The notes: generated by a model not told the origin, from the letters alone. 64,000 nt of DNA from a phage (GCA_014435945.1 GCA_014435945.1_4088.1); one strand, 5' to 3'. Shown: positions 26,417 through 64,000, counted from the first letter of the stretch. Program-made: numbers and translations.

Positions 26417-26469
26417 TAAATGGCAGTATAATATCTTCGTACCGCAATAACTGACAAGAGGATTTAACG

Positions 26470-27772: not shown

Positions 27773-27831
27773 CGTGAGTTATTGAGAGATATATAATTAT
27801 TACATCAAAACTGGGAAATGGTAAGGAACTT

Positions 27832-28083
27832 ATGAACATCGATAAGGTCAAAGAACTTAGTGAAGCACTAATTAAGAACGAAGAAGCTTGTGAAGAACTT
27901 CGCAGTACTATCAAAGTTGAGTACGCACGTCTTCAAGCTATGCTTCAGGAATCCGAATGGGTAGTAACTAAATCTATCGAAGCAATCTATAAGGATATCG
28001 AATCCCTTTTCAACAAGAAAAGTAAGATTGAATCTGATTCATACAATAAGCGTAAAGAATTAAATTCGGCACTCGGTATCTAA
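27832..28083 (+). CDS. hypothetical coiled-coil protein
   Basis: 83 aa. Confidence 0.5.
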   Translation: MNIDKVKELSEALIKNEEACEELRSTIKVEYARLQAMLQESEWVVTKSIEAIYKDIESLFNKKSKIESDSYNKRKELNSALGI

Positions 28084-28157
28084 AAGTATTTGACTTAACC
28101 AATGACATGGAGTACATTGTACTCCTACTTTATTCAAAAGCCTAAAAGGAAAACATT

Positions 28158-28418
28158 ATGAAATCTATTCTCGTTGCTGTAAACCTGGTTGCTTCTCCAT
28201 CTTTCAACTTCAAACAAGTTGTTGCTGATAACCTGAAGAACATTTGCCCTAACGCTGAATTGACTTTCTGTGTGTTTGATTCAGAAAAAGTAACTAAAGT
28301 TGATCTAAACTATCTTTTGAACGAAGTACAAAGTATTTCTGGTGAAAGTAATTTGGAAGTACTGAATACGGTTGCTGATGACTATGATGATACACTGGTA
28401 ATTTCGGAGAAATTCTAA
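28158..28418 (+). CDS. hypothetical protein
   Basis: 86 aa. Confidence 0.5.
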   Translation: MKSILVAVNLVASPSFNFKQVVADNLKNICPNAELTFCVFDSEKVTKVDLNYLLNEVQSISGESNLEVLNTVADDYDDTLVISEKF

Positions 28419-28423
28419 ATCCA

Positions 28424-28843
28424 ATGCTTAGATTTATACATTACTTAATCAGTAAGTTCTTTGGTTATTATACTATTGAAGGTAAAGCTACGCTTGCACA
28501 TAAAATCTTTGTAGCATTATGTGTGGGTGATTATGACGTATTGAATAAGTACTGTAAATCTAAAGCATGTATTGACATAATGGCACTTCGTATCTATGAG
28601 TGTCAGTTCAATAGATATAATTTTTACCAGTACAGATATGATAAAGATGATTTTGATAGCATTAAAATGCTAAAGAATTTATGTAATAATAAAAAGAATA
28701 TGCATATATCTGAATTTGTTGCATTGTATTTTTATTTAAAAAGTTCATTATACATGAATACACTTAAACGCTTCGATCCTGGAATTAATGTATTCAACGA
28801 TAAAGAATTTTATATCTATGATAAATTTTTAGATAAGGTTTAA
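28424..28843 (+). CDS. hypothetical protein
   Basis: 139 aa. Confidence 0.5.
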   Translation: MLRFIHYLISKFFGYYTIEGKATLAHKIFVALCVGDYDVLNKYCKSKACIDIMALRIYECQFNRYNFYQYRYDKDDFDSIKMLKNLCNNKKNMHISEFVALYFYLKSSLYMNTLKRFDPGINVFNDKEFYIYDKFLDKV

Positions 28844-51449: not shown

Positions 51450-52220
51450 ATGACCAGAGAAGCACGTAGCATTCAAATCCAGAAAAACTTCAACTCCATG
51501 ATGGTTGCTCTTGAGTGTTTGCTCGATGATAGCAGTACTGTAAAAAGTATGGTTGTCAGTGGTGCACCTGGTGTTGGTAAGACTTACACCCTGTCACAAC
51601 GCCTCCAGAAAGCTCATGACGCAGCAGAATGGAACGTAGCTACTATCAGTGGTAAGATGACTACTCTTGCTCTGTATGAAGTTCTGTACAAGAATCGTCA
51701 CAGCACTAACGTATTAGTACTGGATGATATGGACAGCATCTTTGATTCAGAAGACGGTATGAACCTGCTCAAAGCAGTACTGGACAGCGGTAAACGTACT
51801 GTGTCTTACATGACTAGCTCTAAGTACTTAACTACCAACGGTATCCCTAACAGCTTTGATTTTAACGGTCGTATCGTATTCATTACTAACAAAGATTTAG
51901 CACTGAATGCTAAAGCTAAAACCAAAATGTCTGCTCACTATGCTGCTCTTATGTCTCGCTCTGTGTATGTTGACTTACAGATCCAGACTAAAAGCGATAT
52001 CATGATTCACATTGAAAACGTAATGAACAAGACCAACATCCTGTCAACTAAAGGTGTTAATAGTAATGGTAGCAAAGCAATCCTGAATTGGATGCTGAAA
52101 CATGAAGATGCACTTCGTGCCCCTTCACTGCGTATGCCTCTGTTGATTTCAGCAGTATACAACAACAACCCGTATGATTGGGAAGAGCAGTGCGAAAATT
52201 TGTTCCTTGAGAAAATTTAA
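51450..52220 (+). CDS. P-loop NTPase (AAA-like ATPase)
   Basis: Walker A GAPGVGKT; Walker B-like VLVLDDMD. Confidence 0.7.
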   Translation: MTREARSIQIQKNFNSMMVALECLLDDSSTVKSMVVSGAPGVGKTYTLSQRLQKAHDAAEWNVATISGKMTTLALYEVLYKNRHSTNVLVLDDMDSIFDSEDGMNLLKAVLDSGKRTVSYMTSSKYLTTNGIPNSFDFNGRIVFITNKDLALNAKAKTKMSAHYAALMSRSVYVDLQIQTKSDIMIHIENVMNKTNILSTKGVNSNGSKAILNWMLKHEDALRAPSLRMPLLISAVYNNNPYDWEEQCENLFLEKI

Positions 52221-52287: not shown

Positions 52288-52626
52288 ATGCTTGAGTTTT
52301 TTAATTCAGATACAATGCTTAGTATTACTTTGATTTATCTGTTTGGTTTTTTCTTTTATCATGCACTAGTTGTAGTACTATGGTATTTTAAAAAGAAAAT
52401 CGTTTTCAAACTGTATCCTGATGGAAACATTTCACTACTTCTTTTCACTATTATCCAAGGTATGTTTGCAATTGTTGGTCTTATCGCACACTTAATTTAT
52501 TGTGCTAATCCACAGTTGAACTCAATATCACAATATATTGTATTCCTTGGATTACTAATTTGGGTGCTGATATACTTGTTTAATCTCATCATCAATGGTA
52601 GAGCAAAAATTCGTGGGGACTTCTAA
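52288..52626 (+). CDS. small membrane protein, array B member 1
   Basis: 112 aa; about 3 TM helices; basic C-terminal tail. Confidence 0.55.
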   Translation: MLEFFNSDTMLSITLIYLFGFFFYHALVVVLWYFKKKIVFKLYPDGNISLLLFTIIQGMFAIVGLIAHLIYCANPQLNSISQYIVFLGLLIWVLIYLFNLIINGRAKIRGDF

Positions 52627-52973
52627 TGTTTGAATCTTATCTTGAGTTTTTAAAGAGTAGTTCTGTTGCACATTCAATTGCAGGGATTATTCTAACAGGT
52701 TATGTAACATTTTGGGTAGTTATGTTTCTAGGATGGTATTTTAAACGACAATTCTATAAGCGTAATGGTGAAGATTTTATGAATTCTTTCATTAATCAAT
52801 CGTTGTTTGCATCAACATTGATAGCATCTATTGTAGCAACACTCACTGGAAAGGTACTGCCAGCATTCTCCGCAGTTTACGGTACATTGGGTATGATATG
52901 TGTAGTTTTTTACTTGATCATTAAACTTTGTTGTGTTATGATTGACCTTCGAAACAAGATACCGGAGGAATGA
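52626..52973 (+). CDS. small membrane protein, array B member 2
   Basis: TAATG overlap; tail ends DLRNKIPEE, like array A. Confidence 0.55.
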   Translation: MFESYLEFLKSSSVAHSIAGIILTGYVTFWVVMFLGWYFKRQFYKRNGEDFMNSFINQSLFASTLIASIVATLTGKVLPAFSAVYGTLGMICVVFYLIIKLCCVMIDLRNKIPEE

Positions 52974-53308
52974 TGGAATATTTTTTACACTTACTGCCGT
53001 GGTATATGAAAGTTAGTACTATGTACTATATTCTTAGTGCTGGATTCTACTTTCTGATGTGGTTCTTCAAACGACCAATTTCAGTATTCATCTCTGATAA
53101 CATGCTGCAATTAAAATTACACGCATGGTTTGGTATGGCGATGATTATGCCAATTATTCACTACTCAATGATTAGTAGAGGGTTCCGTTCCAATGGTGAA
53201 CCAATTGTATTAGTATTCTATTGGGGTTCAACTATTGCATATGTAAGTTTGTTGTTGTTCCCAGTCGTTCATAAATTACGTGCTAAAGTTCCTGATGCGA
53301 GGTACTAA
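52970..53308 (+). CDS. small membrane protein, array B member 3
   Basis: ATGA overlap; same architecture. Confidence 0.55.
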   Translation: MMEYFLHLLPWYMKVSTMYYILSAGFYFLMWFFKRPISVFISDNMLQLKLHAWFGMAMIMPIIHYSMISRGFRSNGEPIVLVFYWGSTIAYVSLLLFPVVHKLRAKVPDARY

Positions 53309-53622
53309 TGGATATCGTAACATTGATTTACACGCTTTATTCATTCTATTTTATTATGTGTTGGGTTGGATTTTTATTTGTATTGAAGATGTTTGATTAT
53401 GTTGAAAAACAGATAAAAGAATTTTGTATTCCTTTTATTGGGTCAACCATAATTAGTATTACTTGTTTGTATTATTTGGTATGTGATCCACCTGTTAATA
53501 CAGCAATGATTGACTTCATGTTATTACCAACAACTGTTATTTTTTTATGTAGTCTGATGCCACCGATTAGTCGTGGGCTAACCGAATTTAGACGCAATCA
53601 AAAGCGTAAACGAGGGATGTGA
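53308..53622 (+). CDS. small membrane protein, array B member 4
   Basis: TAATG overlap; same architecture. Confidence 0.55.
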   Translation: MDIVTLIYTLYSFYFIMCWVGFLFVLKMFDYVEKQIKEFCIPFIGSTIISITCLYYLVCDPPVNTAMIDFMLLPTTVIFLCSLMPPISRGLTEFRRNQKRKRGM

Positions 53623-53990
53623 TGGAAATTACACTTATTATATTAACTGCTATGTTGTTTATTAGTACAATTGTTATTATTGGCAAGTTCTTCTGTGTAT
53701 CCTTCTTGGAAACCGTATACGATGAAATTGCTGATGATTATGAATTACATGCGGGATTTTTTACTACGTATTGGATTAGTTTATTACTACTTATCACTGT
53801 ATGGATTTTACATATATTCAAATGGGGTATGGTAGATGGTGATCCAGTACTGGCAATTATCTGTGTAGTGTTTGGTCTACTCGGTGGTGCTGTCCATAAT
53901 CTGATGGTAATTTGGCAAACCGTACAATATGTATTAGTTCCACATTTTCAGAGAATGCACCAAAGCATCAAATACCGCAAACGAGGATAA
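53619..53990 (+). CDS. small membrane protein, array B member 5
   Basis: ATGA overlap; same architecture. Confidence 0.55.
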   Translation: MMEITLIILTAMLFISTIVIIGKFFCVSFLETVYDEIADDYELHAGFFTTYWISLLLLITVWILHIFKWGMVDGDPVLAIICVVFGLLGGAVHNLMVIWQTVQYVLVPHFQRMHQSIKYRKRG

Positions 53991-53991
53991 C

Positions 53992-54354
53992 ATGAATAAT
54001 ATTGAATTATCTTTTATTGGTCAATTAATGGTAATGGCGTATACATTTATCTTCTCACTGAATGCATTCGTGTGCATTGGGAAGTACTTCCATAAGCGAC
54101 CATTATCAAATATATATGATGTAATACAAAGGAGATATAGCCCAGCATATACTGTGTTGAGTACAGCATTCAATTTTGGTTTTATTCTAATGCTGGTTGC
54201 ATTATTAACATCGAGTTTAAATTTTATAACATTTGGTATTATGGTATGTTCACTAACACTGAGTGTGGTTATTCTCTGTGCATCCGTTGAGTTGATGGCG
54301 TGGATGTATTATAAGATTTCCGAAATCCATGACCGTTTAGGTAAGAGGAACTAA
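53992..54354 (+). CDS. small membrane protein, array B member 6
   Basis: Same architecture. Confidence 0.55.
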   Translation: MNNIELSFIGQLMVMAYTFIFSLNAFVCIGKYFHKRPLSNIYDVIQRRYSPAYTVLSTAFNFGFILMLVALLTSSLNFITFGIMVCSLTLSVVILCASVELMAWMYYKISEIHDRLGKRN

Positions 54355-54355
54355 A

Positions 54356-54727
54356 ATGAGTTATCGTGAAATATTTTCGATCATTACTATTATTGTTTTT
54401 AGTTTAGGTTCTTTGGTGTGGTTATTGTATTACTTCTGTGTAACCCCAGTATATAATATGCTAAATTCAGTACGCTCTGATGTTGGTATTGTTTCTTTTA
54501 TTATCTTCATGGCATATTATATGCTAAGTATCACAGGTTTGGTTTTGGTTGTTATCTTTGACCTTGGACCGAATCAAGATGGTATGGAGGTGTGGGAATT
54601 GATAACGATGTTTGCATGTATGATACCTGCATTTGGTGTATGTGCTGGTGTATTTTATGGGTTATGTAAAGGTGTGAACTACTTAAAAAATATCCACAAT
54701 ACTATTCGTAAAAAACGTATGTTATAA
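54356..54727 (+). CDS. small membrane protein, array B member 7
   Basis: Same architecture; tail IRKKRML. Confidence 0.55.
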   Translation: MSYREIFSIITIIVFSLGSLVWLLYYFCVTPVYNMLNSVRSDVGIVSFIIFMAYYMLSITGLVLVVIFDLGPNQDGMEVWELITMFACMIPAFGVCAGVFYGLCKGVNYLKNIHNTIRKKRML

Positions 54728-54728
54728 T

Positions 54729-54764
54729 AAAAATCCAGTACTATTATAGTACTGGATTAATTTT
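54729..54764. terminator. bidirectional terminator at strand switch
   Basis: Perfect 10-bp stem ATCCAGTACT/AGTACTGGAT with A-run and T-run flanks, between convergent genes. Confidence 0.7.
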
Positions 54765-55887
54765 AATTATCTAAGCCACCAATTACACTGAACTGTGTGG
54801 TAACGTCTGAACTATTATCTATGTAAGTTCTTCTACCAACATAATATAGTTGTCCTTTTGCTTGTATAAAAGTTACTGTCCCTGTATTGAATGTTATAAT
54901 ATCATTGTATGTAATGTCAGGTGGTAGTGCTGCTGATAACGCAGTAACTTTACTTAATGCAGCACTAGTACTACCATTTATACCAGCAGCAATACTACCA
55001 GTACCATAGAACTTATTATCTTTACCAATGAATACGTTGGCTGATGCTTGTGTAGCTGATGTTATTGCCTTACCAATTTGGAATGCGGTTCCTATGGTGT
55101 ATGGTGTGCTCCTGGCTGCGTCTATGCTTTGTGTATATCCATCCCCTAGCTGACCATTAACTTTGTCACCACATGAGTATAGAGTACCATTGAGGCTGTA
55201 TATGATCCCACGGTTAGAGAAGCTAACAGCTTCTGCATTAGTCCATACTGGTGCGGTGTATGAGTTTACACGACTAGCGGTAGTTCCTAGACCTAGTATA
55301 CCATATGTGTTATCACCACATCCAAACCATTGCCCAGAACTGTTTTGATAGAACACTGAACGTTCTGTTGATTCCATGCGTACAGCATCCACAGCACCAC
55401 TTTTAACGAACGAAGTGGATGAGGATGTAGTACCAGTACCCAATGCACCATAAGTGTTTGTACCAATCGCATAGATTGATCCTAGTGGTGTCATAACACG
55501 TATGCAGTTATATCCCAATTGAACTTTACATTCAAATAGGTTGTCCCATATTTCAGGAACAGCAGAAAATAAATTTGTAATTTCGAACCATGATGTTGTC
55601 GAACCAGTTAATCCTATACTGCTTTTGTTTCCTAAAATGAAAACAGTTTTGTCCTTCTTAATTATCCATGATGATAGGAAACCTATCTCACAGCTATGAA
55701 CATTTGATTCTATTTGGGTAATATAATACTTAACTGTGTTATCACCCATGAATGCCGCAGCACCGGATGCAAAAAGGTTTCCAGTTTGTTTATTTAAAAT
55801 GTAGTTATTGTTTCCATATACTCTAACATCATAAGAACTTTCTTGTTTTTCGTTCCCATAATCAAATAACAATACGAAAGGTAACAT
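54763..55887 (-). CDS. RCC1-like repeat (beta-propeller) protein, MLPF family paralog A
   Basis: N-terminus MLPFVLLFDYGN; Gly-rich repeats YGALGTGTT, YGILGLGTT, NGQLGDGYT. Confidence 0.65.
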   Translation of the reverse strand: MLPFVLLFDYGNEKQESSYDVRVYGNNNYILNKQTGNLFASGAAAFMGDNTVKYYITQIESNVHSCEIGFLSSWIIKKDKTVFILGNKSSIGLTGSTTSWFEITNLFSAVPEIWDNLFECKVQLGYNCIRVMTPLGSIYAIGTNTYGALGTGTTSSSTSFVKSGAVDAVRMESTERSVFYQNSSGQWFGCGDNTYGILGLGTTASRVNSYTAPVWTNAEAVSFSNRGIIYSLNGTLYSCGDKVNGQLGDGYTQSIDAARSTPYTIGTAFQIGKAITSATQASANVFIGKDNKFYGTGSIAAGINGSTSAALSKVTALSAALPPDITYNDIITFNTGTVTFIQAKGQLYYVGRRTYIDNSSDVTTQFSVIGGLDN

Positions 55888-55964
55888 GATAAAATCTCCT
55901 TGTGTTATACTTTATTTAATCATTTTATAATGTACAATTTTACAGCGATTTAATTGAGGTACTC

Positions 55965-56615
55965 ATGAATAAAAGAAGTAAGTTCTATCAAGAATATTTC
56001 ACTAAACAGAAACGATTCACAAAAAAATACTTTACATCATCCCACCGACCAGTTGCAAGTTACAAACGTCCTAATACTAACTATCTTACTGGTGGCAAGT
56101 TTAGTGCAAAGTTCGAATTACTTATGCGTGAAAAGAATATCAAGATGCATTACGCAGAGACGAGAAAAAACTCATCAATTATTTGCTCTGATTTTCTTGA
56201 GTACGGTTGCTTAACTTATAAATTCAACGATGTATATTTGTATATTGATGTTGATTGTAACAGTACTCGTATGTTTGAGATTTCAATTCACCCAAATCAC
56301 AACCGTTATATAAACATTAACTTGGTTGATAAAGTACTGATTGGTATATCTAGTACTGATGGTGGTGGATTTGAATTTATTGCTTCAAAATATGATGAAG
56401 ATTTCGTACTTTACCCAGTACTTGATGATGTGAAAGATATTCTCAATTCATTAAAAGGAAGTCAATACAAATTATCTGAAGAACAGCTATTCCAGTACTC
56501 ACTTATTCATGATGATATCGAGATATACTTAGAGTGTGCGAGAATCTTGGAGTATCTTTATAATGAACTAACAACAACTGGTAAAGTGACTGCATTCACA
56601 TTATATAATATGTAA
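55965..56615 (+). CDS. hypothetical protein, FQxS-module family, embedded in minus-strand array
   Basis: 216 aa; C-terminal EEQLFQYSLIHDDIEIYLE. Confidence 0.55.
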   Translation: MNKRSKFYQEYFTKQKRFTKKYFTSSHRPVASYKRPNTNYLTGGKFSAKFELLMREKNIKMHYAETRKNSSIICSDFLEYGCLTYKFNDVYLYIDVDCNSTRMFEISIHPNHNRYININLVDKVLIGISSTDGGGFEFIASKYDEDFVLYPVLDDVKDILNSLKGSQYKLSEEQLFQYSLIHDDIEIYLECARILEYLYNELTTTGKVTAFTLYNM

Positions 56616-56646
56616 AAGAAAAGCCAGTACATAGTACTGGCATTAT
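56614..56646. terminator. bidirectional terminator hairpin
   Basis: GCCAGTAC-ATA-GTACTGGC flanked by A-run and T-rich tract. Confidence 0.65.
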
Positions 56647-56647
56647 A

Positions 56648-57784
56648 TTAAACTGGTGGAGAATTATATGGCTCAAATTTATAAGTTGTCGTAGCAGTAC
56701 CAGCAATGGCGTTGTTAGCTAGTATGTACATAGTCCTGTAGTCGATTACCACCACAGTAATACTACCACCAAAAGCATAGTCTGTTATGTTATTAGTGTT
56801 GAATGGTAAATTAGATGAACTGGTCCATGTATTAGCTGTTGTGCTATTTGTACCATTGGAATAGCCGACACTAGATGCACCAGTTGTCCATAAGTTTCCA
56901 TCATTGAACAACGATACATGGTTAGCTGTATATGATTTATTAGGTATAGAACTATCAATTGGTGTATTCCAAACTTTAGTAACCCATGTTGTAACTGCTG
57001 TATTATTAGTAACGCCATTACCTAATGAACCATTTATTGGTATACCTCTTATATAAGAAGTGTTAGTACTAGGGTCAACATATCCAAATGTATATGTATC
57101 AAATGCAAATTGAAAACAATCAGAACTCGGTAATGTGTACAGTAATGTATATGAAGACGTGTTTATTGATGAATTTGTACCGTTCACGCCTTGGTATAAA
57201 ATACCACTAGCCAATATTTGATTATTATTTTTTGTTATAGTGTTCATTGACGGATATGTTTTCACATCACGCACATCATTAGTCACATATGTTTGTGTTG
57301 ATAATGCAACATTACTACCATTACCTATAACTCCTGTATTTGCACCACTCCCATAAAGTGAACCATCATTCAAAAGAACCATTGTGACATTACCATTTCC
57401 CGTAATTGTTTTAATATTACTAACATCCACCGCAGCAAATACAGTTGATGTTAAATCAGTGAAACGTGTATAATGTGATGTTGTGCCATTGATTGGTGTC
57501 GCAAAACCAGAATACAAAATTCTATTTTCTTTGGTAATAAGGAATGTGCCAGTAACACCATTTGAATGGATATCAACAATATTATCGCCCATTAATACCC
57601 AATCACTTACGAATGTTGTTGTGCCAGTACCTAACCCATATGTAGTGTTGTAACCACGTCCATATACTCTACCATCACTGAGTAATGTTACCACACATTG
57701 ACCACCACCACCAAGTATAACTTTTTGTATAGTACTCTTTACTTTTATATTCCCGTACTTAACCATTCTTGCAAAAGGTAACAT
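56648..57784 (-). CDS. RCC1-like repeat protein, MLPF family paralog B
   Basis: MLPFARMVKYGNIKV; YGLGTGTT-type repeats. Confidence 0.65.
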   Translation of the reverse strand: MLPFARMVKYGNIKVKSTIQKVILGGGGQCVVTLLSDGRVYGRGYNTTYGLGTGTTTFVSDWVLMGDNIVDIHSNGVTGTFLITKENRILYSGFATPINGTTSHYTRFTDLTSTVFAAVDVSNIKTITGNGNVTMVLLNDGSLYGSGANTGVIGNGSNVALSTQTYVTNDVRDVKTYPSMNTITKNNNQILASGILYQGVNGTNSSINTSSYTLLYTLPSSDCFQFAFDTYTFGYVDPSTNTSYIRGIPINGSLGNGVTNNTAVTTWVTKVWNTPIDSSIPNKSYTANHVSLFNDGNLWTTGASSVGYSNGTNSTTANTWTSSSNLPFNTNNITDYAFGGSITVVVIDYRTMYILANNAIAGTATTTYKFEPYNSPPV

Positions 57785-57821
57785 AATTCCCTCCTTTATT
57801 CATTATACTATATTTAATCAA

Positions 57822-57856
57822 AAAAGAAAAGCCAGTACTCAAGTACTGGCATTATT
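57822..57856 (-). terminator. intrinsic terminator (minus strand)
   Basis: GCCAGTACT..AGTACTGGC hairpin, U-run on minus strand. Confidence 0.65.
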
Positions 57857-59017
57857 TTAAATTGGTGAATCTTCAACAAATATAGTACTAGCAGTACCAC
57901 CAGATACTAGGTTAGTACCACTTGAATATATTTTGTTTCCATCTGTCATATATGTTTTACCATAGCAACTTTGGATTTTAACATCATTGAAATTTAAATC
58001 AGGAGTAATAGACTTAGTGTAAGTTAATACGTTAGTAGTTGAACCTGTACTTAATTGTCCATAGTATGAAGTCGCTGAGTTATTACCAGCAACGTATACA
58101 CCTGTGTCAGTAATAACAAAGTTAGAGTAATATCCGTACCCATATCCTATATCTAATATATTTCCTTGTGGTTGATTTGCCACAACAGTTGTCAATATGT
58201 TGGTTGATGCTGCTGTATTAGTAGCAGTCTGTCCATATGATTGGTCACCACCAGTATACACAGTAACAACAGACGTACTTTTGTTTCTAGCAATACCTTG
58301 AACCATACCATTAACAGTACTTATAAATGCTATAGTACTAACAGTTGCTGGTAATCCATCTGATAATGCGAATACATTATAAAAACTCACGGTTGAAGTA
58401 CTGTTAGTATCACCTTTAACTTCACCTGTGTAATATAATCTACCACTTTCGGCAATAAATGAACACATGTTTATACCTGCAATAATCCTTTTCGGAACCG
58501 CACCACTTGGTATAATTGATTTTACTAATGTAGTAAAACTGTTAGAATAAGAAGCATTGCCAAGCTGTCCTCCTGTGTTATAACCACCACTCCAAATAGT
58601 TCCATTACTCATAAGTATTGAAATGAAGTTATTTCCTAATGATATTTCAGTAATTGTTCCTTGAGAATTAACTTGATTAATAAGAGTTTGCATAGAAGTC
58701 CATGCATTAACAGATGATGTACCCATACACACATTGTATTGTCGCCCTGTGTATTGATATGTACCATCTGATTTGTGAATCATTGTAGCATACTGACCAC
58801 ACCATACATCAATGACATCCGATGCAGTTACTGTCCATGATGTTCTGGTTGTATTGTCTCCTAAACCCAACTGACCACTTGAATTGGCACCACGGGTATA
58901 TAATTTACCATTATTACCCAATACCATAACCCAGTTATACCCTGCAACTAATTTTTTAATGGCAGCAGGGGATGGTGCAATGTTTCCGTAATCAAACATT
59001 CTAACAAAAGGTAACAT
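57857..59017 (-). CDS. RCC1-like repeat protein, MLPF family paralog C
   Basis: MLPFVRMFDYGNIAP; SGQLGLGD and GGQLGNASY repeats. Confidence 0.7.
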   Translation of the reverse strand: MLPFVRMFDYGNIAPSPAAIKKLVAGYNWVMVLGNNGKLYTRGANSSGQLGLGDNTTRTSWTVTASDVIDVWCGQYATMIHKSDGTYQYTGRQYNVCMGTSSVNAWTSMQTLINQVNSQGTITEISLGNNFISILMSNGTIWSGGYNTGGQLGNASYSNSFTTLVKSIIPSGAVPKRIIAGINMCSFIAESGRLYYTGEVKGDTNSTSTVSFYNVFALSDGLPATVSTIAFISTVNGMVQGIARNKSTSVVTVYTGGDQSYGQTATNTAASTNILTTVVANQPQGNILDIGYGYGYYSNFVITDTGVYVAGNNSATSYYGQLSTGSTTNVLTYTKSITPDLNFNDVKIQSCYGKTYMTDGNKIYSSGTNLVSGGTASTIFVEDSPI

Positions 59018-59029
59018 AATTATTCTCTC

Positions 59030-60148
59030 CTATATTACTATTTTTTCTTCAGTATATATTAATGCTTTATCTGAGGTAGTGTATCCAGGTAAAGGATACA
59101 ATCTACCTGCAACATAACATATGTCATTTTCTATATAATATGATGAATATGTACTGTCAAAGAATATAGGCTCTATTGAAGTTGGTGCATTGATCATCTT
59201 AGTAAATGCTGGAACCGGTCCAGGTGCAAAACTTGCATTTGTACTGGTAAACCCATAATTATCGGAAACTGCTGACGCATAATAATCGGTTCCATTCTGG
59301 ATTATTATTCTTGCTGCAACCGAACTACTATTATGAACGATTTTAGGAAATGCAAATGTAGCTGCATTATATGTGAATGGTAACGAACAAGAAACTAAAG
59401 TTGCAGTTGCACCAGACACTGATGTTCCATATGTATTGTTGACGTTTCCTCTGGCAAATACACCACTAGCTGTATTAAGCACTACAACAGCAACTGTTGC
59501 TGAATAACCCAAAACCCCTGTTGCAATTTGGGTAAACCCAGTGGAACTAGGTATTTGACTAGCGTTTGGGTTTCCAGAACCATAAAGAACCCCAGAATTA
59601 GTTAATGCCCATACGTTTGCATACATTAATTTGAATGACTTGACATCACTGACTATTGTATTTTTAACAAAAGATGTACTACTACTTGGTGTGCTCATTC
59701 CAAATATATATTGCGTATTCGTACCAATGAACCACAATTCTCCTAAATTTGTTAGCACACCTATACAGTTACGTAACACATTAACTTGAACATCAATTAT
59801 TGTACCAGTTATTGCATTAAAAATCGAACTACAATTAACAAATATATTACTTGTTGGATAACCAAATGCAGTAGTTACACCGCTACACATATACTGACCG
59901 TCTTTGAGTTTTAAAAATGTCCACGTAGGTGAATTGTAAAAGTCATCAACATTTTCATATATCAAAGTCCACTTATCAGCAGATGTAGTAACATCACCAA
60001 ACTGACCATTTGTATTTGGTCCAGTAGCATATAATTTCCCACTTGTTGTTAGTAATAAAACTCCATTACTACCATCCGTGACCAATTTGCGTATTTTCGT
60101 AACTTCTCTTACATTCCCGAACTTAACCATTCTTGCAAAAGGTAACAT
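59030..60148 (-). CDS. MLPF family paralog D (beta-propeller-like)
   Basis: MLPFARMVKFGNV; NGQFGD repeat. Confidence 0.65.
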   Translation of the reverse strand: MLPFARMVKFGNVREVTKIRKLVTDGSNGVLLLTTSGKLYATGPNTNGQFGDVTTSADKWTLIYENVDDFYNSPTWTFLKLKDGQYMCSGVTTAFGYPTSNIFVNCSSIFNAITGTIIDVQVNVLRNCIGVLTNLGELWFIGTNTQYIFGMSTPSSSTSFVKNTIVSDVKSFKLMYANVWALTNSGVLYGSGNPNASQIPSSTGFTQIATGVLGYSATVAVVVLNTASGVFARGNVNNTYGTSVSGATATLVSCSLPFTYNAATFAFPKIVHNSSSVAARIIIQNGTDYYASAVSDNYGFTSTNASFAPGPVPAFTKMINAPTSIEPIFFDSTYSSYYIENDICYVAGRLYPLPGYTTSDKALIYTEEKIVI

Positions 60149-60157
60149 ATTTCCCTC

Positions 60158-61315
60158 CTAATTTATATTCAATTTGATTTCTGTGTAGTTCATCAGTTTT
60201 GGATTATTACCTGGAAAATAAGTTAAAGAATCATCATTAAAAGGCCCACTACCAAATACTTTCCCATCAGAGTTTATAAGAGTTGTATAATTACTTGCAC
60301 TAACAACTGTCTCAATATTACCATCCACTGAACTGAAATCCTGTAATGTAAAGTTTGAACCAGCACCTGGCACAGTTGGGTTGGTGAATCCCATTCTGTT
60401 AGTACTACTGCTATTTGCACCAACACCATAATGAACGACTGAATTGGAAATCCACACACTGACGGTCGCTGTCTGTTCATCTGTTAGAATCTTAAATGTA
60501 CTTACATCATAAGAAAACGGCAATGTAATCTTGCTATTAATTGCACGCTGTTCTGCACTGAATGAATAACCATATCTGTTCGACGATAAACCACGGAAAT
60601 ATAAACCATCACTTTTTGTGTATAACAATTCACCATTTAAACCATTACCGTAGATATTAAGTATAGCAGTATCACCAAGGTTCGTAAATGTAGTCACATC
60701 AGTATTACCACTAATAAACTGATAATTACCACAGAACCACGCTGTATTATCATTCTTAAGAGCCACTATAGTCTCATAAGAACAACTTACAAAATTCCTG
60801 CAATTGGTGTTTATCTTCGTAAATGTTCCTAAACTATTACTTTTGCCTAACCCCAATTGACCACGGTTTCCATATCCAATACCATATAAATCACCATCAG
60901 TGTTTAATGCATATACTGTGTACGAAGCATTATTCCTTCTGGTAAAATCAATCTTCTTGATAGTTCCTAATGCAGAGAACGTAGAACTAACATCAATATA
61001 ATTCAATCCTGAACTACCACCCAGTACTGTAGAGTCGCCAGCAGCAAGATAACGTCCATCAGACATTATTAATAATGTACATCTGGGATGACATATCATA
61101 TCCGATACACCCTGCATTACCATCTGCGGAACTCCCCCACTAATCTCACTAGAACTACCACTACCAAATCTCCAGTTGGTGTTTTGACCATATGCATACA
61201 CGTCACCTGTATTCGTCAATATCATCTGACTAGTACCGAAAGAGTTTATCTTCTTAATCCCAGCAGGTACTGGTGCAATATTCCCGTACTTAACCATTCT
61301 TGCAAAAGGTAACAT
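60158..61315 (-). CDS. RCC1-like repeat protein, MLPF family paralog E
   Basis: MLPFARMVKYGNIAP; RGQLGLGK repeat. Confidence 0.7.
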   Translation of the reverse strand: MLPFARMVKYGNIAPVPAGIKKINSFGTSQMILTNTGDVYAYGQNTNWRFGSGSSSEISGGVPQMVMQGVSDMICHPRCTLLIMSDGRYLAAGDSTVLGGSSGLNYIDVSSTFSALGTIKKIDFTRRNNASYTVYALNTDGDLYGIGYGNRGQLGLGKSNSLGTFTKINTNCRNFVSCSYETIVALKNDNTAWFCGNYQFISGNTDVTTFTNLGDTAILNIYGNGLNGELLYTKSDGLYFRGLSSNRYGYSFSAEQRAINSKITLPFSYDVSTFKILTDEQTATVSVWISNSVVHYGVGANSSSTNRMGFTNPTVPGAGSNFTLQDFSSVDGNIETVVSASNYTTLINSDGKVFGSGPFNDDSLTYFPGNNPKLMNYTEIKLNIN

Positions 61316-61324
61316 ATTTCCCTC

Positions 61325-62500
61325 CTATTCTGGTAAAATCATTTTCTTCATTTTAACTTGTTGTGTACCTGGACTCTGTTCCTGAAACATAGAGCCGTTC
61401 CCACACCAGTACACCTCATTAGTCCCCACTAACGCGTATAACACACCAGAACCACCTTGAACTGAAAATGCATTAACATCTGGTGCAACATCCATATCCT
61501 CATATTGTACCTGGTGGTAATAAGATCTTTCTGATGCAGTAGTAACAGGCCAACCAAGAGGAACACCACTACCACATGTATAAAGTTTACCATTCTGTGT
61601 CATTGCCATTATAAAATAATTCAAACTGTGATTGTTCATCGACCCAGCATCTGGTATAATACCACTAATTGCGGGAGTGGCACTAAATGGACTCATGATA
61701 CTAGTAGTGTCGCCATAACCAATACCTAAAGTATAATCAGTGTTTATACCAGCAGTATATACTCTAATATTACCATTATTAGATGTAAGTACTAAAGTCG
61801 TTAATGTAGTACATGAAATACCAATAACTGTTCCCGATATATCAGTACTTACCGTAAATGTCGAAAGTTTAGAAGAACCTGACCCTAAGTTGTAACTTGC
61901 GTTATTCCCACATCTGTAGTATTGATTATTTTTAACATAATGGAAAGCATCCCCAGCCGTTGTTCCCGCAATTATAGTAACTCCAGTAGCAATCTGAATT
62001 GGCGTTGTTTTTCTACCAGTAACACCCAATGCACCTCCTGTATTACGCCCAATCCCATATAAGTCCCCATTACTTAACAAAATCAATAACGCACCATTTG
62101 ATGCAGTAGTTTCAGTAGCAGCTATATCTACTACTGTAGTAAGTGCTGGTATTGTAGACAATAAAGATGTGATATTAGTCCATCCAGGAACTGGTGATGC
62201 AGATACACCGACATAACCCATTTGACCAGCTAAGTAAAATGCTCCGTCAGTCGTAAGTATAATTGTTGCTGCAAAGAAGCACCAAACATTAGAAACTTTA
62301 TATGGACACTGTACCCACCCATTTTGCACATACGCAGTGCTATTATTTCCTAGCATATAGTTTGCACCATTTCCACGTAGATATAAGTTACCACTATCAA
62401 ATAACATACCCATATGTGATGGAGATGTACTTATCTTCATAACACCTGAAGGTGCTGGAACTCTGTTTCCGTACTTAACCATTCTTGCAAAAGGTAACAT
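61325..62500 (-). CDS. MLPF family paralog F (beta-propeller-like)
   Basis: MLPFARMVKYGNRVP; GGALGVTG repeat. Confidence 0.65.
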   Translation of the reverse strand: MLPFARMVKYGNRVPAPSGVMKISTSPSHMGMLFDSGNLYLRGNGANYMLGNNSTAYVQNGWVQCPYKVSNVWCFFAATIILTTDGAFYLAGQMGYVGVSASPVPGWTNITSLLSTIPALTTVVDIAATETTASNGALLILLSNGDLYGIGRNTGGALGVTGRKTTPIQIATGVTIIAGTTAGDAFHYVKNNQYYRCGNNASYNLGSGSSKLSTFTVSTDISGTVIGISCTTLTTLVLTSNNGNIRVYTAGINTDYTLGIGYGDTTSIMSPFSATPAISGIIPDAGSMNNHSLNYFIMAMTQNGKLYTCGSGVPLGWPVTTASERSYYHQVQYEDMDVAPDVNAFSVQGGSGVLYALVGTNEVYWCGNGSMFQEQSPGTQQVKMKKMILPE

Positions 62501-62540
62501 ATTTCCCTCCTTTATTCATTATACTATATTTAATACAAAT

Positions 62541-62570
62541 AAGAAAGCCAGTATCAAGTACTGGCCTATA
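62541..62570 (-). terminator. intrinsic terminator (minus strand)
   Basis: GCCAGTA-TCAAG-TACTGGC hairpin. Confidence 0.6.
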
Positions 62571-62571
62571 T

Positions 62572-63741
62572 TTAAACTGGTGAATCTAATATAAATTCTA
62601 AACTACTAATGCCACCATATGTGACATCTGTTCCCGTGCTATATACAAAATTACCATCAGTTATATAAGTTCGGTGATAACTACCTGCCATCTGTGACTT
62701 ACTATAATCAAACCCATCAGGTACGATTGCTTTGGTATATACTAATGCATTAGTAGATGTACCAATACCTAACATACCAGCTTGTGTAGATTTATTGTAA
62801 CCGCAACAATATATACCATCTGTTGTAGCAATAACTTGGTTATAATATGAAGTATTGTTAGCAATGCTTACTACATCACCAGGTGGCATTAGTGATGCTG
62901 TTTGTACCTCAAATGCTCTATAATCGTTGAGAGAACCATCGTTCCCATCTGCTTGTGCACCAAATATTCTTGAACCACCATTTGCGATGATAGTTTTACC
63001 AGTGGGATCAGTGCCTATTGCCATTGCCATTGAAGTACCATTATTCACATAGTATTTTATATTAATTGTATTACTTAAGCTGGTAGGAGCACCATAATAT
63101 ATATTATATAACTTACTTCCTGAACTTGTAACTGCATTGACTCTTCCTGTATAAAATAGCCATCCTTGGTTTGTAACATAACCGTGCATTAAATTACTTG
63201 CAAACAATTTAACAGGTAATTGATTTGCTGCGGTCGGGACAGTACTTTTGACGAATCTACCAGAAACATAGTTAGTTGTTGTCCCATCACCCAACTGACC
63301 ATCCGACCCTACTCCAGTACTCCATATTGTTTGGTCTGATAGTAACACACTTGTAGTCTGATAACTAACGGCTATATCTAATATTGGTAATGTTAATGTA
63401 TTGAATATAGGCATAGCAGATGTCCATATTGATACTCCTGCCCCTTTCATACCAACAGTTGTTGAACTTCCACTGTACCATATTTCATTATTGCTTTTCT
63501 TAACAACTATCGACGTGGTTCCCATCCAAAAATCTTCAACACCAGAAGTACTAAAAGTCCATGTAGTAACAGTATTTTCGTGACCTAAACCCAAAAGACC
63601 ATATGCATTATCACCACGCACATATAAATCACCACTGTTTGTTAAAACAGCAACATTATAGTTGTTAGCAAGTATTTTTTTAATATTTGGTTTAGTAGGT
63701 GCAATATTCCCGTAATCAAACATTCTAACAAAAGGTAACAT
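62572..63741 (-). CDS. RCC1-like repeat protein, MLPF family paralog G
   Basis: Start at internal Met (MLPFVRMFDYGNIAP) preceded by AAGGAGG; DGQLGDGTT repeat; track start 63777 adds 12 non-conserved residues. Confidence 0.65.
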   Translation of the reverse strand: MLPFVRMFDYGNIAPTKPNIKKILANNYNVAVLTNSGDLYVRGDNAYGLLGLGHENTVTTWTFSTSGVEDFWMGTTSIVVKKSNNEIWYSGSSTTVGMKGAGVSIWTSAMPIFNTLTLPILDIAVSYQTTSVLLSDQTIWSTGVGSDGQLGDGTTTNYVSGRFVKSTVPTAANQLPVKLFASNLMHGYVTNQGWLFYTGRVNAVTSSGSKLYNIYYGAPTSLSNTINIKYYVNNGTSMAMAIGTDPTGKTIIANGGSRIFGAQADGNDGSLNDYRAFEVQTASLMPPGDVVSIANNTSYYNQVIATTDGIYCCGYNKSTQAGMLGIGTSTNALVYTKAIVPDGFDYSKSQMAGSYHRTYITDGNFVYSTGTDVTYGGISSLEFILDSPV

Positions 63742-63780
63742 ATTTCCTCCTTTATTCATTATACTATATTTAATCAAAAA

Positions 63781-63808
63781 GAAAAGCCAGTATCAAGTAC
63801 TGGCATTA
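63781..63808 (-). terminator. intrinsic terminator (minus strand)
   Basis: GCCAGTA-TCAAG-TACTGGC hairpin, same as at 62547. Confidence 0.6.
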
Positions 63809-63811
63809 TTG

Positions 63812-64000
63812 TTATAGTTGTCTTGGAGTATCAAGTACATATCTATTTGTACTAGGACCACCATCATCATAAGTTCCGGTTGAATATATATTTTTCATAT
63901 CAGCAGTTAGGAAAGTACGTAACGACCCTCGATATATTTTTATTTTATCATACATAGAATATGTTATTTCTGACGGCAATGGACATGCAGTAAATTTACC
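63812..64000 (-). CDS. 3' end of a further minus-strand gene (5' part beyond window); likely another MLPF paralog
   Basis: Open minus-strand frame ending ...LDTPRQL at stop 63812-63814, similar to ...LDSPV/...EDSPI ends of paralogs. Confidence 0.4.
   Translation of the reverse strand, partial: GKFTACPLPSEITYSMYDKIKIYRGSLRTFLTADMKNIYSTGTYDDGGPSTNRYVLDTPRQL

What the first reader, a model, noticed from the sequence alone, without database searches (positions are those of the whole stretch)
54763..64000. Minus-strand tandem array of at least 8 RCC1-like beta-propeller paralogs with a conserved N-terminal dodecapeptide
Eight consecutive minus-strand genes (seven complete, about 372-391 aa, plus one truncated at the window edge) begin with near-identical MLPF[AV]RM[VF][KD][YF]GN. 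Most of them contain Gly-rich repeats of the RCC1 type (SGQLGLGD, GGQLGNASY, NGQLGDGYT, DGQLGDGTT, RGQLGLGK, YGALGTGTT). Downstream sequences are strongly diversified and Thr/Ser/Asn-rich. Paralogs D, E and F are about 10 bp apart (probably one operon); the others have their own hairpin terminator and a conserved upstream box (minus-strand sense ...AAATATAGTATAATGAATAAAGGAGG...ATG). The shape (conserved short N-terminus, variable propeller body) resembles families of receptor-binding or virion-attached proteins whose N-terminus anchors to the particle, but beta-propeller RCC1-like folds are not the usual phage fibre fold.
Basis: partly seen in the sequence, partly recalled or inferred. Interest (0 to 1): 0.8.

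Follow-up and report, generated by a model that had tools for sequence, protein, structure and literature searches.

The report
Tagged propeller proteins of jumbo phage
A giant E. coli phage carries a row of very different seven-bladed propeller proteins that all start with the same 12 amino acids, and related phages put that same 12-residue start on unrelated protein folds found in purified virus particles, so it is probably an address label for joining the particle.

Summary
Window 54763-64000 holds seven complete minus-strand genes and the 3' end of an eighth. All are RCC1-like (Pfam, PHROG 4219), and two AlphaFold models are seven-bladed propellers. Residues 1-12 are 79% identical between paralogs; the rest is 22%. 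The window comes from a 121Q/PBECO4/phAPEC6-type (Asteriusvirus) jumbo coliphage.

The array and its RCC1 annotation are already published, and mass spectrometry found homologs in purified virions of phAPEC6, GAP32 and W70. The usual "DNA condensation" label is not: net charge is about zero and 38-46% of residues are S, T, N or G.

What I could not find in the searchable literature is the following. The dodecapeptide lies outside the propeller. In syntenic arrays of related phages (CBB, GAP32, Munch, 121Q) the same tag, M-[LI]-P-F-x-R-[MIL]-x-x-Y-G-N, heads Kelch propellers, ConA/LamG lectin folds and a glycine-rich domain, and most of those proteins are also virion proteins by mass spectrometry. 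Body types are reshuffled between phages at conserved terminator-promoter-RBS-tag junctions.

Best reading: a fold-independent tag for incorporation into the virion, carried on interchangeable binding modules. An external adhesin role is favoured over a T4-style internal protein, but neither is shown.

The parts
63812..64000 (-). 3' end (62 codons plus stop) of an eighth paralog, cut by the window edge
   Evidence: 100% identical to the C-terminus of vB_Ec-M-J EcMJ_576 (396 aa, body type T7)
63786..63804 (-). terminator hairpin GCCAGTACTTGATACTGGC followed by a T-run
63746..63773 (-). family-specific upstream box TTAAATATAGTATAATGAATAAAGGAGG; likely a variant late promoter (TAAATA core) plus the RBS
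62572..63741 (-). paralog G, 389 aa, RCC1-like propeller, tag MLPFVRMFDYGN at 63706-63741, body type T2. It is 79% identical to phAPEC6 gp003, which was detected in virions
62545..62567 (-). terminator hairpin
62506..62533 (-). upstream box, serving the F-E-D-C operon
61325..62500 (-). paralog F, 391 aa, tag MLPFARMVKYGN at 62465-62500, body type T3. It is 86% identical to phAPEC6 gp006, which was detected in virions. AF2 model: seven-bladed propeller
60158..61315 (-). paralog E, 385 aa, tag MLPFARMVKYGN, body type T12. It starts 9 nt after F, with RBS GGAGGGAAAT
59030..60148 (-). paralog D, 372 aa, tag MLPFARMVKFGN, body type T16 (found only in the window among the five genomes compared)
57857..59017 (-). 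paralog C, 386 aa, tag MLPFVRMFDYGN, body type T1. The TH47 ortholog has the same body but the ARMVKY tag allele. AF2 model: seven-bladed propeller
57831..57850 (-). terminator hairpin ending the F-E-D-C operon
57790..57817 (-). upstream box of B
56648..57784 (-). paralog B, 378 aa, tag MLPFARMVKYGN, body type T5
56623..56641 (-). terminator hairpin after B
55903..55919 (-). diverged upstream box TTAAATAAAGTATAACA of paralog A
54763..55887 (-). paralog A, 374 aa, tag MLPFVLLFDYGN, body type T4. It is separated from the rest of the array by a plus-strand ORF
54732..54758 (.). bidirectional terminator hairpin between the plus-strand membrane-protein array and paralog A

Best explanation
The array encodes low-copy virion proteins, each built from two parts.

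1. A 12-residue N-terminal tag with consensus M-[LI]-P-F-x-R-[MIL]-x-x-Y-G-N. It is predicted to be a short amphipathic helix outside the folded domain. I propose it is a fold-independent signal that docks the protein onto a common phage-encoded acceptor during assembly.
2. An interchangeable binding body, here a seven-bladed RCC1-like beta-propeller. I propose the bodies are exposed on the particle and act as accessory adhesins for host-surface or environmental ligands.

Each gene, or small operon, is a cassette bounded by a conserved terminator hairpin, a family-specific late-type promoter box, the RBS and the tag codons. Recombination at these junctions swaps bodies and tag alleles between co-infecting relatives, so each phage holds a different subset of a large repertoire.

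Shown here or in published work: the array, the fold, the tag lying outside the fold, the tag on unrelated folds, virion presence of homologs by published mass spectrometry, and the cassette mosaicism.

Inferred: that the tag does the targeting, that the proteins are external, that they bind ligands, and that they are expressed late.
For: Fold and tag position
- All seven are RCC1-like.
- AF2 models of F and C are complete seven-bladed propellers (pTM 0.84 and 0.83). The first strand starts at residue 20 and the C-terminal strand closes blade 1. Residues 1-10 have pLDDT 49-55 and form a short helix outside the propeller.
- Identity is 79% in the tag and 22% in the body.

The tag is independent of the fold
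- In the syntenic arrays of CBB, GAP32, Munch and 121Q the same tag heads three Kelch propellers, ConA/Laminin_G_3 proteins and a Gly_rich_2 domain. These fall in five different PHROG families. BLAST similarity between classes ends at residue 12-18, apart from two PHROG 6011 pairs.
- Among 40 distinct tags, M1 and P3 never vary, and F4, Y10, G11 and N12 are above 80%. Positions 5, 8 and 9 vary, which fits one conserved hydrophobic face.
- The tag motif was found only in these arrays across 64 kb of the window, a 49 kb structural module of phAPEC6 and the other loci fetched.

Virion presence (published mass spectrometry)
- phAPEC6 gp003, 005, 006, 007, 009 and 010.
- GAP32 gp001, 530 and 531, and CBB_548, 549, 551, 552 and 553.
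- W70_237-239, with 141-233 spectra against 467 for the portal, which suggests roughly 5-8 copies each (my estimate).

An external binding role is favoured
- Net charge is -3 to +1, only about 10-13% of residues are charged, and 38-46% are S, T, N or G.
- Many of the bacterial relatives recovered carry secretion or cell-surface domains such as T9SS sorting, Ig-like and PKD.
- RCC1-like domains occur in a Pseudomonas phage protein annotated as a tail fibre and in PHROG 11922 'tail protein'. CR9_033 lies directly after a tail fibre gene.

Cassette shuffling
- There are 24 body types among five genomes, in different orders.
- The same body carries different tag alleles in different phages (types T1, T2, T7, T9 and T10).
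- The box is identical across dozens of copies and is found only in this family.
- Orthologs are under purifying selection, with dN/dS of 0.09-0.34.

Expression
- In five lineages of Rak2-like jumbo phages, stand-alone tag genes have [TG]TAAATA[TC] about 28-35 nt before the ATG. Structural genes have ATAAATA, and the phage encodes a gp55-like late sigma factor.
Against: - No experiment shows that the tag is needed for incorporation, or where in the virion the proteins sit.
- No acceptor protein has been identified.
- The predicted bodies are monomeric globular propellers, not the trimeric fibres or spikes typical of receptor-binding proteins.
- In this phage the array lies far from the tail and baseplate genes, among small early-type genes.
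- The tag codons are also conserved at synonymous sites, so gene conversion or a nucleotide-level role contributes to the within-genome identity.
- A short conserved leader on diverse virion proteins is also exactly how T4 internal proteins look.
- Virion mass spectrometry cannot exclude proteins that merely co-purify.
- Peptide counts in phAPEC6 are low, 1-4 per protein.
Confidence: 0.5

Rival explanations
1. The dodecapeptide is a capsid-targeting sequence like that of T4. It directs the proteins into the scaffolding core of the prohead, they are packaged with the DNA and injected, and the variable bodies neutralise host defence or takeover targets. This would parallel the diverse T-even internal proteins, which share only their targeting sequence.
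For: [quoted passage not shown]
- These phages have a T4-type prohead scaffold and protease and a gp55-like sigma factor.
- From memory, the T4 sequence MKTYQEFIAE has an aromatic residue at position 4 and hydrophobic residues at 7-8, as the tag does (F4, M/I7, V/L8).
- The repertoire is hypervariable between close relatives.
- phAPEC6 has an inner body whose composition is unknown.
- Propellers are classic protein-protein interaction scaffolds.
Against: - There is no conserved Glu-type cleavage site in or after the tag. Position 9 can be K, D, E, Q, N, S or T, and most paralogs have no Glu in the first 30 residues.
- My copy estimate is low, about 5-8 per virion in W70, against roughly 1000 internal protein molecules in a T4 head.
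- The near-neutral, charge-poor, S/T/N/G-rich composition, the lectin-type and glycine-rich bodies, and the many secreted or surface-domain bacterial relatives recovered look extracellular.
- A 40 kDa closed propeller would have to unfold to pass through the tail tube (inference).
Confidence: 0.2
2. The conservation of the first 36 nt is mainly a nucleotide-level feature. It could be a recombination or gene-conversion tract, or a translation-initiation element shared with the RBS. On this view the peptide has no targeting role, and the proteins reach or co-purify with virions through their bodies.
For: - The codons for L2 (TTA), P3 (CCT) and R6 (AGA) are identical in every window copy, and the conserved tract starts at the RBS even inside the operon.
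- Tag alleles are uncoupled from bodies and tend to be homogenised within a genome: mostly ARMVKY in 121Q and phAPEC6, mostly VRMFDY in vB_Ec-M-J.
- A small hairpin pairing the SD sequence with codons 3-4 is predicted in every copy.
Against: - The peptide pattern is kept across genera in which its amino-acid sequence, and hence its codons, have changed (MLPFSRIIQYGN, MIPFARILTYGN, MFPIPIISKYGN). Conserved and variable positions follow a helical face pattern.
- The tag is kept on unrelated folds.
- The hairpin is no more stable than shuffled controls, with z between -0.4 and +0.9.
Confidence: 0.12
3. The database label is right. The proteins would then be DNA-condensation or chromatin-like organisers of the packaged genome, or inner-body components, or Ran-type nucleotide exchange factors.
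For: - The RCC1 family name and the suggestion made in the phAPEC6 and W70 papers.
- The proteins are present in virions.
- An inner body is seen in phAPEC6.
Against: - pI is 5.5-7.7 and net charge about zero, with no basic tail.
- The label rests on the name of the eukaryotic founder of the family, whose propeller fold is a general binding scaffold (UVR8, HERC, RPGR).
- Thirteen or more paralogs at about 20% identity, swapped between near-identical phages, do not fit a conserved packaging role.
- In CBB the same genomic slot is filled by Kelch and lectin folds, and CBB has no RCC1 homolog.
Confidence: 0.04

Closest known systems
RCC1-like paralog arrays of Rak2-like jumbo phages (PHROG 4219; phAPEC6 gp001-010, 121Q_234-248, GAP32 gp001) and of Vequintavirinae (W70_237-239)
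   Same: Same family, same genomic position and same array architecture. Window genes F and G are orthologs of phAPEC6 gp006 and gp003. Published mass spectrometry places members in virions.
   Different: The window has its own combination of body types; type T16 (gene D) was not seen in the four other genomes compared. The papers I read call the proteins DNA-condensation proteins. They do not mention the shared N-terminal peptide, its presence on other folds, or the cassette junctions.
T4 internal proteins (IPI, IPII, IPIII, Alt) with the N-terminal capsid targeting sequence
   Same: Diverse, hypervariable virion proteins that share only a leader of about 10-12 residues, in phages with T4-type head assembly.
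   Different: No conserved Glu cleavage site. The apparent copy number is low. The composition is neutral and S/T/N/G-rich, and the bodies are lectin or propeller folds. An internal location has not been shown. There is no sequence similarity to the T4 leader beyond a loose hydrophobic pattern.
Receptor-binding proteins that attach through a short conserved N-terminal anchor peptide (for example the second depolymerase of KP32-type Klebsiella phages, and branched tailspike systems such as RaK2/K64-1). Cited from memory, not checked here
   Same: A short conserved N-terminus on an exchangeable, host-facing body, with several different bodies per virion.
   Different: Those proteins are trimeric beta-helix spikes encoded in the tail module, and their acceptor domains are known (T4 gp10-like). 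Here the bodies are predicted monomeric propellers, the genes are remote from the tail module, and the acceptor is unknown. RaK2 itself lacks homologs of the tagged proteins.
PeSL cassettes (promoter-early stem-loops) that mediate modular shuffling in T4-type phages (PMC2839356, PMC4122927)
   Same: A conserved composite of terminator hairpin and promoter at the borders of variable genes, with gene content differing between close relatives at those borders.
   Different: The promoter part is not a sigma-70 early promoter. It lacks a -35 element and has a TAAATA late-type core. The conserved tract runs on through the RBS into the first 12 codons. The motif is restricted to one gene family.
Eukaryotic RCC1-like domain proteins (RCC1, UVR8, HERC, RPGR) and bacterial RCC1-repeat surface or secreted proteins
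   Same: Seven-bladed propeller with the GxLG repeat signature, TM 0.65-0.80. Many of the bacterial relatives recovered carry secretion or surface domains.
   Different: About 20% identity. There is no basic chromatin-binding tail and no evidence of exchange-factor activity. The phage proteins are a bare propeller plus the 12-residue tag.

Membership tests
RCC1-like repeat beta-propeller (Pfam PF00415, PF13540, PF25390) | Tandem repeats of about 50-60 residues with the G-x-N-x-x-G-Q-L-G signature | tested here: met
   All seven proteins hit the RCC1-like domain (E 1e-8 to 4e-26). Five exceed the RCC1 or RCC1_2 gathering score; B and D fall just below it.
RCC1-like repeat beta-propeller (Pfam PF00415, PF13540, PF25390) | Seven-bladed propeller closed by strands from both termini | tested here: met
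   AF2 models of F and C have pTM 0.84 and 0.83, with full-length Foldseek matches to UVR8, HERC, RPGR and RCC1.
RCC1-like repeat beta-propeller (Pfam PF00415, PF13540, PF25390) | Chromatin or DNA association, or Ran exchange activity (the basis of the 'DNA condensation' label) | tested here: inconclusive
   Composition argues against it: pI 5.5-7.7, net charge about 0 and no basic tail. Activity cannot be tested with these tools.
PHROG 4219 'regulator of chromosome condensation' of Rak2-like phages and Vequintavirinae | Full-length match to the family profile | tested here: met
   E 2e-40 to 6e-79 for all seven. Six align over essentially the whole protein; for A the best stretch covers residues 1-212.
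PHROG 4219 'regulator of chromosome condensation' of Rak2-like phages and Vequintavirinae | Presence in purified virions | not testable with these tools
   Shown by published mass spectrometry for orthologs and homologs: phAPEC6 gp003 and gp006, GAP32 gp001, W70_237-239. It has not been shown for this phage.
T4-type internal proteins bearing a capsid targeting sequence | Conserved N-terminal leader of about 10 residues on otherwise unrelated proteins | tested here: met
   The tag is shared by RCC1, Kelch, LamG and Gly-rich bodies.
T4-type internal proteins bearing a capsid targeting sequence | Leader removed by the prohead protease at a conserved (L/I)-x-E site (cleavage motif cited from memory) | tested here: not met
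   No conserved Glu. Position 9 is variable, and most paralogs have no Glu in residues 1-30. No mass-spectrometry data on N-terminal peptides were available.
T4-type internal proteins bearing a capsid targeting sequence | Located inside the head and ejected into the host | not testable with these tools
   No localisation data exist. The low spectral counts and the composition speak against it.
Phage receptor-binding proteins with an N-terminal anchor | Conserved N-terminal attachment element with a variable distal body | tested here: met
Phage receptor-binding proteins with an N-terminal anchor | Trimeric fibre or spike architecture, encoded with tail or baseplate genes | tested here: not met
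   The whole protein is a single propeller. The array is remote from the structural module. The oligomeric state was not tested. In CR9 the homolog does lie immediately downstream of a tail fibre gene.
Phage receptor-binding proteins with an N-terminal anchor | Demonstrated binding to a host receptor | not testable with these tools
   No data.
PeSL-type mobile regulatory cassettes | Conserved terminator stem-loop plus promoter at the borders of genes that vary between close relatives | tested here: met
PeSL-type mobile regulatory cassettes | The promoter is a sigma-70 early promoter | tested here: not met
   The sigma-70 scan does not pick up the box, because there is no -35 element at 16-18 nt spacing. 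The core conserved across genera is TAAATA, like the late promoters.

The most novel reading that the evidence does not exclude
The dodecapeptide is a natural display tag. Any protein that carries it is docked on the outside of Rak2-like jumbo phage particles, possibly on the unexplained hairy appendages or on the T4-type long-fibre apparatus that RaK2 lacks. Each virion would then expose a mixed set of ten or more lectin-like modules (RCC1, Kelch, ConA/LamG, glycine-rich) drawn from a repertoire that recombination at the tag junctions reshuffles between phages. That would be a combinatorial adhesin system unlike the one-fibre, one-receptor logic of model phages.
Probability: 0.25. Interest if true: 0.8.

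Novelty: new variant of a known kind. Interest (0 to 1): 0.58.

Why it matters
Rak2-like and 121Q-like jumbo phages give 10-15 kb to these arrays, and several are being developed for therapy. Even so, the proteins are still labelled "DNA condensation" on the strength of a family name alone.

Seeing them as a 12-residue tag joined to an exchangeable binding domain turns an annotation puzzle into direct experiments: tag fusions, tag deletions and localisation. It would explain why these genes are among the most variable between near-identical phages. It may bear on host range, on retention at surfaces, and on the unexplained hairy appendages of phAPEC6 and CBB.

If the tag is sufficient for incorporation, it is also a ready tool for loading or displaying foreign proteins on jumbo phage particles, as the T4 capsid targeting sequence has been for T4.

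Tried and rejected
- Sigma-70 promoter. The scan does not detect the box and there is no -35 element. Across genera the conserved element is TAAATA, not the TATAAT hexamer.
- Regulatory RNA hairpin pairing the SD sequence with codons 3-4. It is predicted in every copy but is no more stable than shuffled sequence, with z between -0.4 and +0.9. Left as unsupported.
- The N-terminus as the closing (velcro) strand of the propeller. Rejected, because both models close blade 1 with the C-terminal strand and leave residues 1-19 outside.
- Gene-wide positive selection. Not found; ortholog dN/dS is 0.09-0.34. The diversity comes from old paralogs and cassette replacement.
- T4-type cleavage site after the tag. 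Not conserved.
- Relatives in IMG/VR. The protein-pattern scan returned only 121Q. The DNA-pattern scan returned 121Q, CBB and about 100 single matches; I examined two of these and they were chance, and took the rest to be so. The CBB hit led to the cross-fold result.
- The tag outside the arrays. None found in the window, in 49 kb of the phAPEC6 structural module or in the other loci. Whole genomes were not scanned at the protein level.
- Peptide-level mass-spectrometry data that would show whether the tag is retained. Not present in the CBB supplements.
- Hairs made of RCC1 proteins. Rejected, because CBB is hairy and has no RCC1 homolog. However, CBB does have tagged Kelch and LamG proteins.
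- Function of the plus-strand ORF 55965-56615 and the lone minus-strand gene 23433-24590. No Pfam match for either.

Full report
**1. What is in the sequence**

The region holds seven complete minus-strand ORFs and the 3' end of an eighth:
- A 54763-55887 (374 aa)
- B 56648-57784 (378 aa)
- C 57857-59017 (386 aa)
- D 59030-60148 (372 aa)
- E 60158-61315 (385 aa)
- F 61325-62500 (391 aa)
- G 62572-63741 (389 aa from the ATG that starts MLPF)
- a fragment at 63812-64000

The fragment is 100% identical to the C-terminus of a 396-aa paralog of phage vB_Ec-M-J.

Six genes start MLPF[AV]RM[VF][KD][YF]GN and gene A starts MLPFVLLFDYGN. Pairwise identity is 79% over residues 1-12 and 22% (range 17-35%) over the rest.

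All seven match Pfam RCC1, RCC1_2 or the RCC1-like domain, and PHROG 4219.

Transcription runs from high to low coordinates. F, E, D and C are 9, 9 and 12 nt apart and form one operon. The fragment, G, C and B are each followed by the hairpin GCCAGTACT...AGTACTGGC and a T-run, and A by a related bidirectional hairpin. G, F and B are each preceded by the exact box TTAAATATAGTATAATGAATAAAGGAGG, which is not expected by chance. A has a diverged copy of the box. GC skew changes sign over the array, as expected for a strand switch.

**2. Where the window comes from and what was already known**

The region matches Asteriusvirus jumbo coliphages (TH47, vB_Ec-M-J, 121Q, phAPEC6, PBECO4 and others). 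The match is a mosaic: at most 62% of the region is covered at 95% identity in any one record.

The arrays are annotated in GenBank as "regulator of chromosome condensation" or "DNA condensation protein".

The phAPEC6 paper notes eleven RCC1-like proteins. It lists gp003, 005, 006, 007, 009 and 010 in the virion proteome, with 1-4 unique peptides each, and speculates that they organise DNA (PMC7247149).

The CBB paper records GAP32 gp001 as a virion protein by mass spectrometry, lists the 121Q and PBECO4 paralogs, and states that CBB has no homolog (PMC5259590).

In the Vequintavirinae phage W70, three PHROG 4219 proteins were found in virions with 141-233 spectra, against 467 for the portal (PMC11370258).

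Window genes F and G are orthologs of phAPEC6 gp006 (86% aa identity) and gp003 (79%). So the array, its fold family and its association with virions are not new.

**3. Structure**

AlphaFold2 models of F (60-sequence alignment, pLDDT 81, pTM 0.84) and C (pLDDT 81, pTM 0.83) are complete propellers. The best Foldseek matches for the F model in the PDB are the seven-bladed UVR8, HERC1/2, RPGR and RCC1, with TM 0.65-0.80 over the full length.

In both models the first strand begins at residue 20 and the C-terminal strand completes blade 1. Residues 1-10 have pLDDT 49-55 and are drawn as a short helix (residues 4-10 or 6-10). The dodecapeptide is therefore an appendage and not part of the propeller.

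In the viral structure library, the same fold appears in a Pseudomonas phage protein annotated as a tail fibre (1365 aa) and in a 604-aa uncharacterised protein, PVP-SE1 gp40. Weak PHROG hits include a "tail protein" family.

**4. The tag is wider than the RCC1 family**

Homologs in other lineages keep a lineage-specific version of the N-terminus:
- GAP32 gp001: MLPFSRIIQYGN
- Salmonella phage Munch: MIPF[AT]RIL.YGN
- Yersinia fHe-Yen9-04: MLPFP[IV]I...
- Xanthomonas XaC1: MFPIPIISKYGN
- Certrevirus CR9: MFPIPALTLTGG
- Vequintavirinae LTH01: MLEMLNLG

A DNA-pattern scan for the tag codons hit phage CBB. At the position syntenic with the window's array, CBB has seven minus-strand genes (CBB_548-554). 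All start MLPF[ASP][RI]..[EKQNA]Y[GA]N. Their bodies are Kelch propellers (550, 552, 554) and Laminin_G_3/ConA-like proteins (548, 551), and 549 and 553 fall in the same PHROG as 551.

Five of the seven (548, 549, 551, 552, 553) are virion proteins by mass spectrometry. CBB_548 and 549 and their GAP32 counterparts were detected in both phages.

GAP32_002 and 530, and Munch_534 and 540, are tagged LamG-type proteins. 121Q_243 and Munch_544 are tagged glycine-rich proteins; Munch_544 hits Pfam Gly_rich_2, and both fall in PHROG 4474.

Between body classes, BLAST similarity stops at residue 12-18, apart from two pairs involving PHROG 6011 proteins.

Across 40 distinct tags, M1 and P3 are invariant. 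F4, Y10, G11 and N12 are above 80%. Position 6 is mostly R and position 7 is I, M or L. Positions 5, 8 and 9 vary. This is the pattern of one conserved hydrophobic face on a short helix.

The motif was found nowhere else in the 64-kb window, in a 49-kb structural module of phAPEC6 or in the other loci.

The CBB authors list only CBB_549 and 553 as paralogs. I found no paper linking these proteins through their N-terminus. The searchable library is incomplete, so this is not proof that the link is unpublished.

**5. Cassette behaviour**

I clustered the paralog bodies of the window, TH47, phAPEC6, 121Q and vB_Ec-M-J at 55% identity or more. This gives 24 types.

Each genome has a different subset and order. 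For example, the window reads T2-T3-T12-T16-T1-T5-T4 and TH47 reads T14-T2-T10-T12-T1-T5-T4. Type T16 (gene D) is unique to the window.

The same body carries different tag alleles in different phages. T1 has VRMFDY in the window and ARMVKY in TH47; T2, T7, T9 and T10 behave likewise. In the T1 pair, differences are 11% in codons 1-12 against 3% in the body.

The box is identical in dozens of copies in four genomes and occurs only before these genes. The tag codons are nearly identical even at synonymous sites.

Orthologs evolve under purifying selection, with dN/dS of 0.09-0.34.

This is the logic of the PeSL cassettes of T4-type phages (PMC2839356, PMC4122927), with two differences. The promoter is different, and the conserved tract runs into the coding sequence.

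**6. Expression signal**

Structural genes of phAPEC6 (major head protein, gp226, gp231, gp232, gp238, gp242, gp245) have ATAAATA upstream, and the phage encodes a "sigma factor for late transcription".

Stand-alone tag genes in Asteriusvirus, Munch, GAP32/CBB, Yen9-04 and XaC1 all have [TG]TAAATA[TC] about 28-35 nt before the ATG, directly after a terminator. The TATAAT hexamer is not conserved across genera. The box does not qualify as a sigma-70 promoter.

I infer a variant late promoter. No transcript data were available to check this.

**7. What the proteins most likely do**

The "DNA condensation" reading rests on the family name. The proteins have pI 5.5-7.7 and net charge -3 to +1. Only about 10-13% of residues are charged, and 38-46% are S, T, N or G. 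The same genomic slot can be filled by Kelch or lectin folds.

Among the more distant relatives found with a profile, many are bacterial RCC1-repeat proteins carrying T9SS sorting, Ig-like, PKD or chitobiase-type domains, that is, secreted or surface proteins.

Scaling W70 spectral counts by protein size against the 12-copy portal suggests roughly 5-8 copies of each paralog per virion. The same scaling gives sensible numbers for a baseplate protein and a tail fibre. This is my estimate and is rough.

Together with the tag lying outside the fold and its independence of fold, the best-supported model is a common incorporation tag on interchangeable binding modules. I rate the statement "the tag is a virion-incorporation signal of some kind" at about 0.75. 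I rate the fuller model, in which the proteins are external adhesins, at about 0.5.

The main rival is a T4-style capsid targeting sequence on injected proteins (about 0.2). [quoted passage not shown] Against this rival are the missing Glu cleavage site, the low apparent copy number and the extracellular-looking bodies.

A purely nucleotide-level explanation of the conservation (about 0.12) is weakened because the peptide pattern is kept across genera and folds. The predicted SD hairpin is no better than shuffled controls.

**8. A lead for the acceptor**

RaK2 has no homologs of the tagged proteins. Structural proteins that CBB and GAP32 share but RaK2 lacks include CBB_225, CBB_226 (long tail fibre proximal subunit), CBB_029, 118, 148, 149, 183 and 261.

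CBB_551 and 552, both tagged, are among the six CBB virion proteins with no gene in GAP32, the set in which the authors expected to find the whisker components.

With three genomes this is a lead, not evidence.

**9. Verdict**

The family, the array and the virion association are already known.

An external, receptor-binding role remains an inference.

Noticed in passing
window 52288-54727 (+): Seven back-to-back genes for small proteins of 104-123 aa. Six show three TM-like hydrophobic segments and the seventh (52970-53308) shows one. Pairwise similarity is only 20-25%. They converge on the tagged array. The same arrangement, a P-loop NTPase followed by a run of 3-TM proteins and then the tagged array on the opposite strand, recurs in GAP32, CBB, Yen9-04, Munch, 121Q and phAPEC6.
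   Followed up: partly
window 51450-52220 (+): A 256-aa P-loop NTPase with weak AAA and STAND-type Pfam hits below the gathering scores. It lies directly upstream of the membrane-protein array and is conserved in that position in related phages (Munch_528 'P-loop NTPase', 121Q_223, GAP32_524).
   Followed up: partly
window 55965-56615 (+): A 216-aa plus-strand ORF with no Pfam match splits paralog A from the rest of the array. At its 3' end, on the minus strand (about 56599-56615), sits a degenerate copy of the family box, TTACATATTATATAATG, with no tagged gene behind it. The same remnant is present in TH47 and vB_Ec-M-J. It may be the scar of a lost cassette.
   Followed up: partly
window 23433-24590 (-): A lone minus-strand gene of 385 aa, acidic, with no Pfam match, in an otherwise plus-strand region. 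It has its own TATAAT-containing upstream region and a hairpin terminator. It is not RCC1-like and carries no tag.
   Followed up: partly
L007 (121Q) 24783-28619, beyond the window's right edge in relatives: In 121Q, directly after the tagged array, there is a long run of about 17 plus-strand ORFs of about 60-75 aa each (121Q_249-265). This may be another paralog array. Whether the window's phage has it cannot be seen.
   Followed up: no
L007 (121Q) 10514-15335: Several 121Q array members are split or truncated, while their counterparts in vB_Ec-M-J or phAPEC6 are intact. This indicates pseudogenisation or sequencing frameshifts within the array.
   Followed up: no
L004 (Vequintavirinae phage LTH01) 453-5122: Four tandem RCC1-like genes of 377-399 aa share a different N-terminal motif, MLEM[LM]NLG. 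The principle of a tag plus a variable propeller therefore also holds in 140-kb phages, with a lineage-specific tag.
   Followed up: partly
window tags: 63706-63741 and 58982-59017 versus 62465-62500, 61280-61315, 60113-60148 and 57749-57784: Two tag alleles coexist in one genome, ARMVK[YF] and VRMFDY, and they differ by a charge reversal at position 9 (K versus D). 121Q and phAPEC6 have almost only the K type, and vB_Ec-M-J has mostly the D type. Whether these address two different acceptor sites is unknown.
   Followed up: partly
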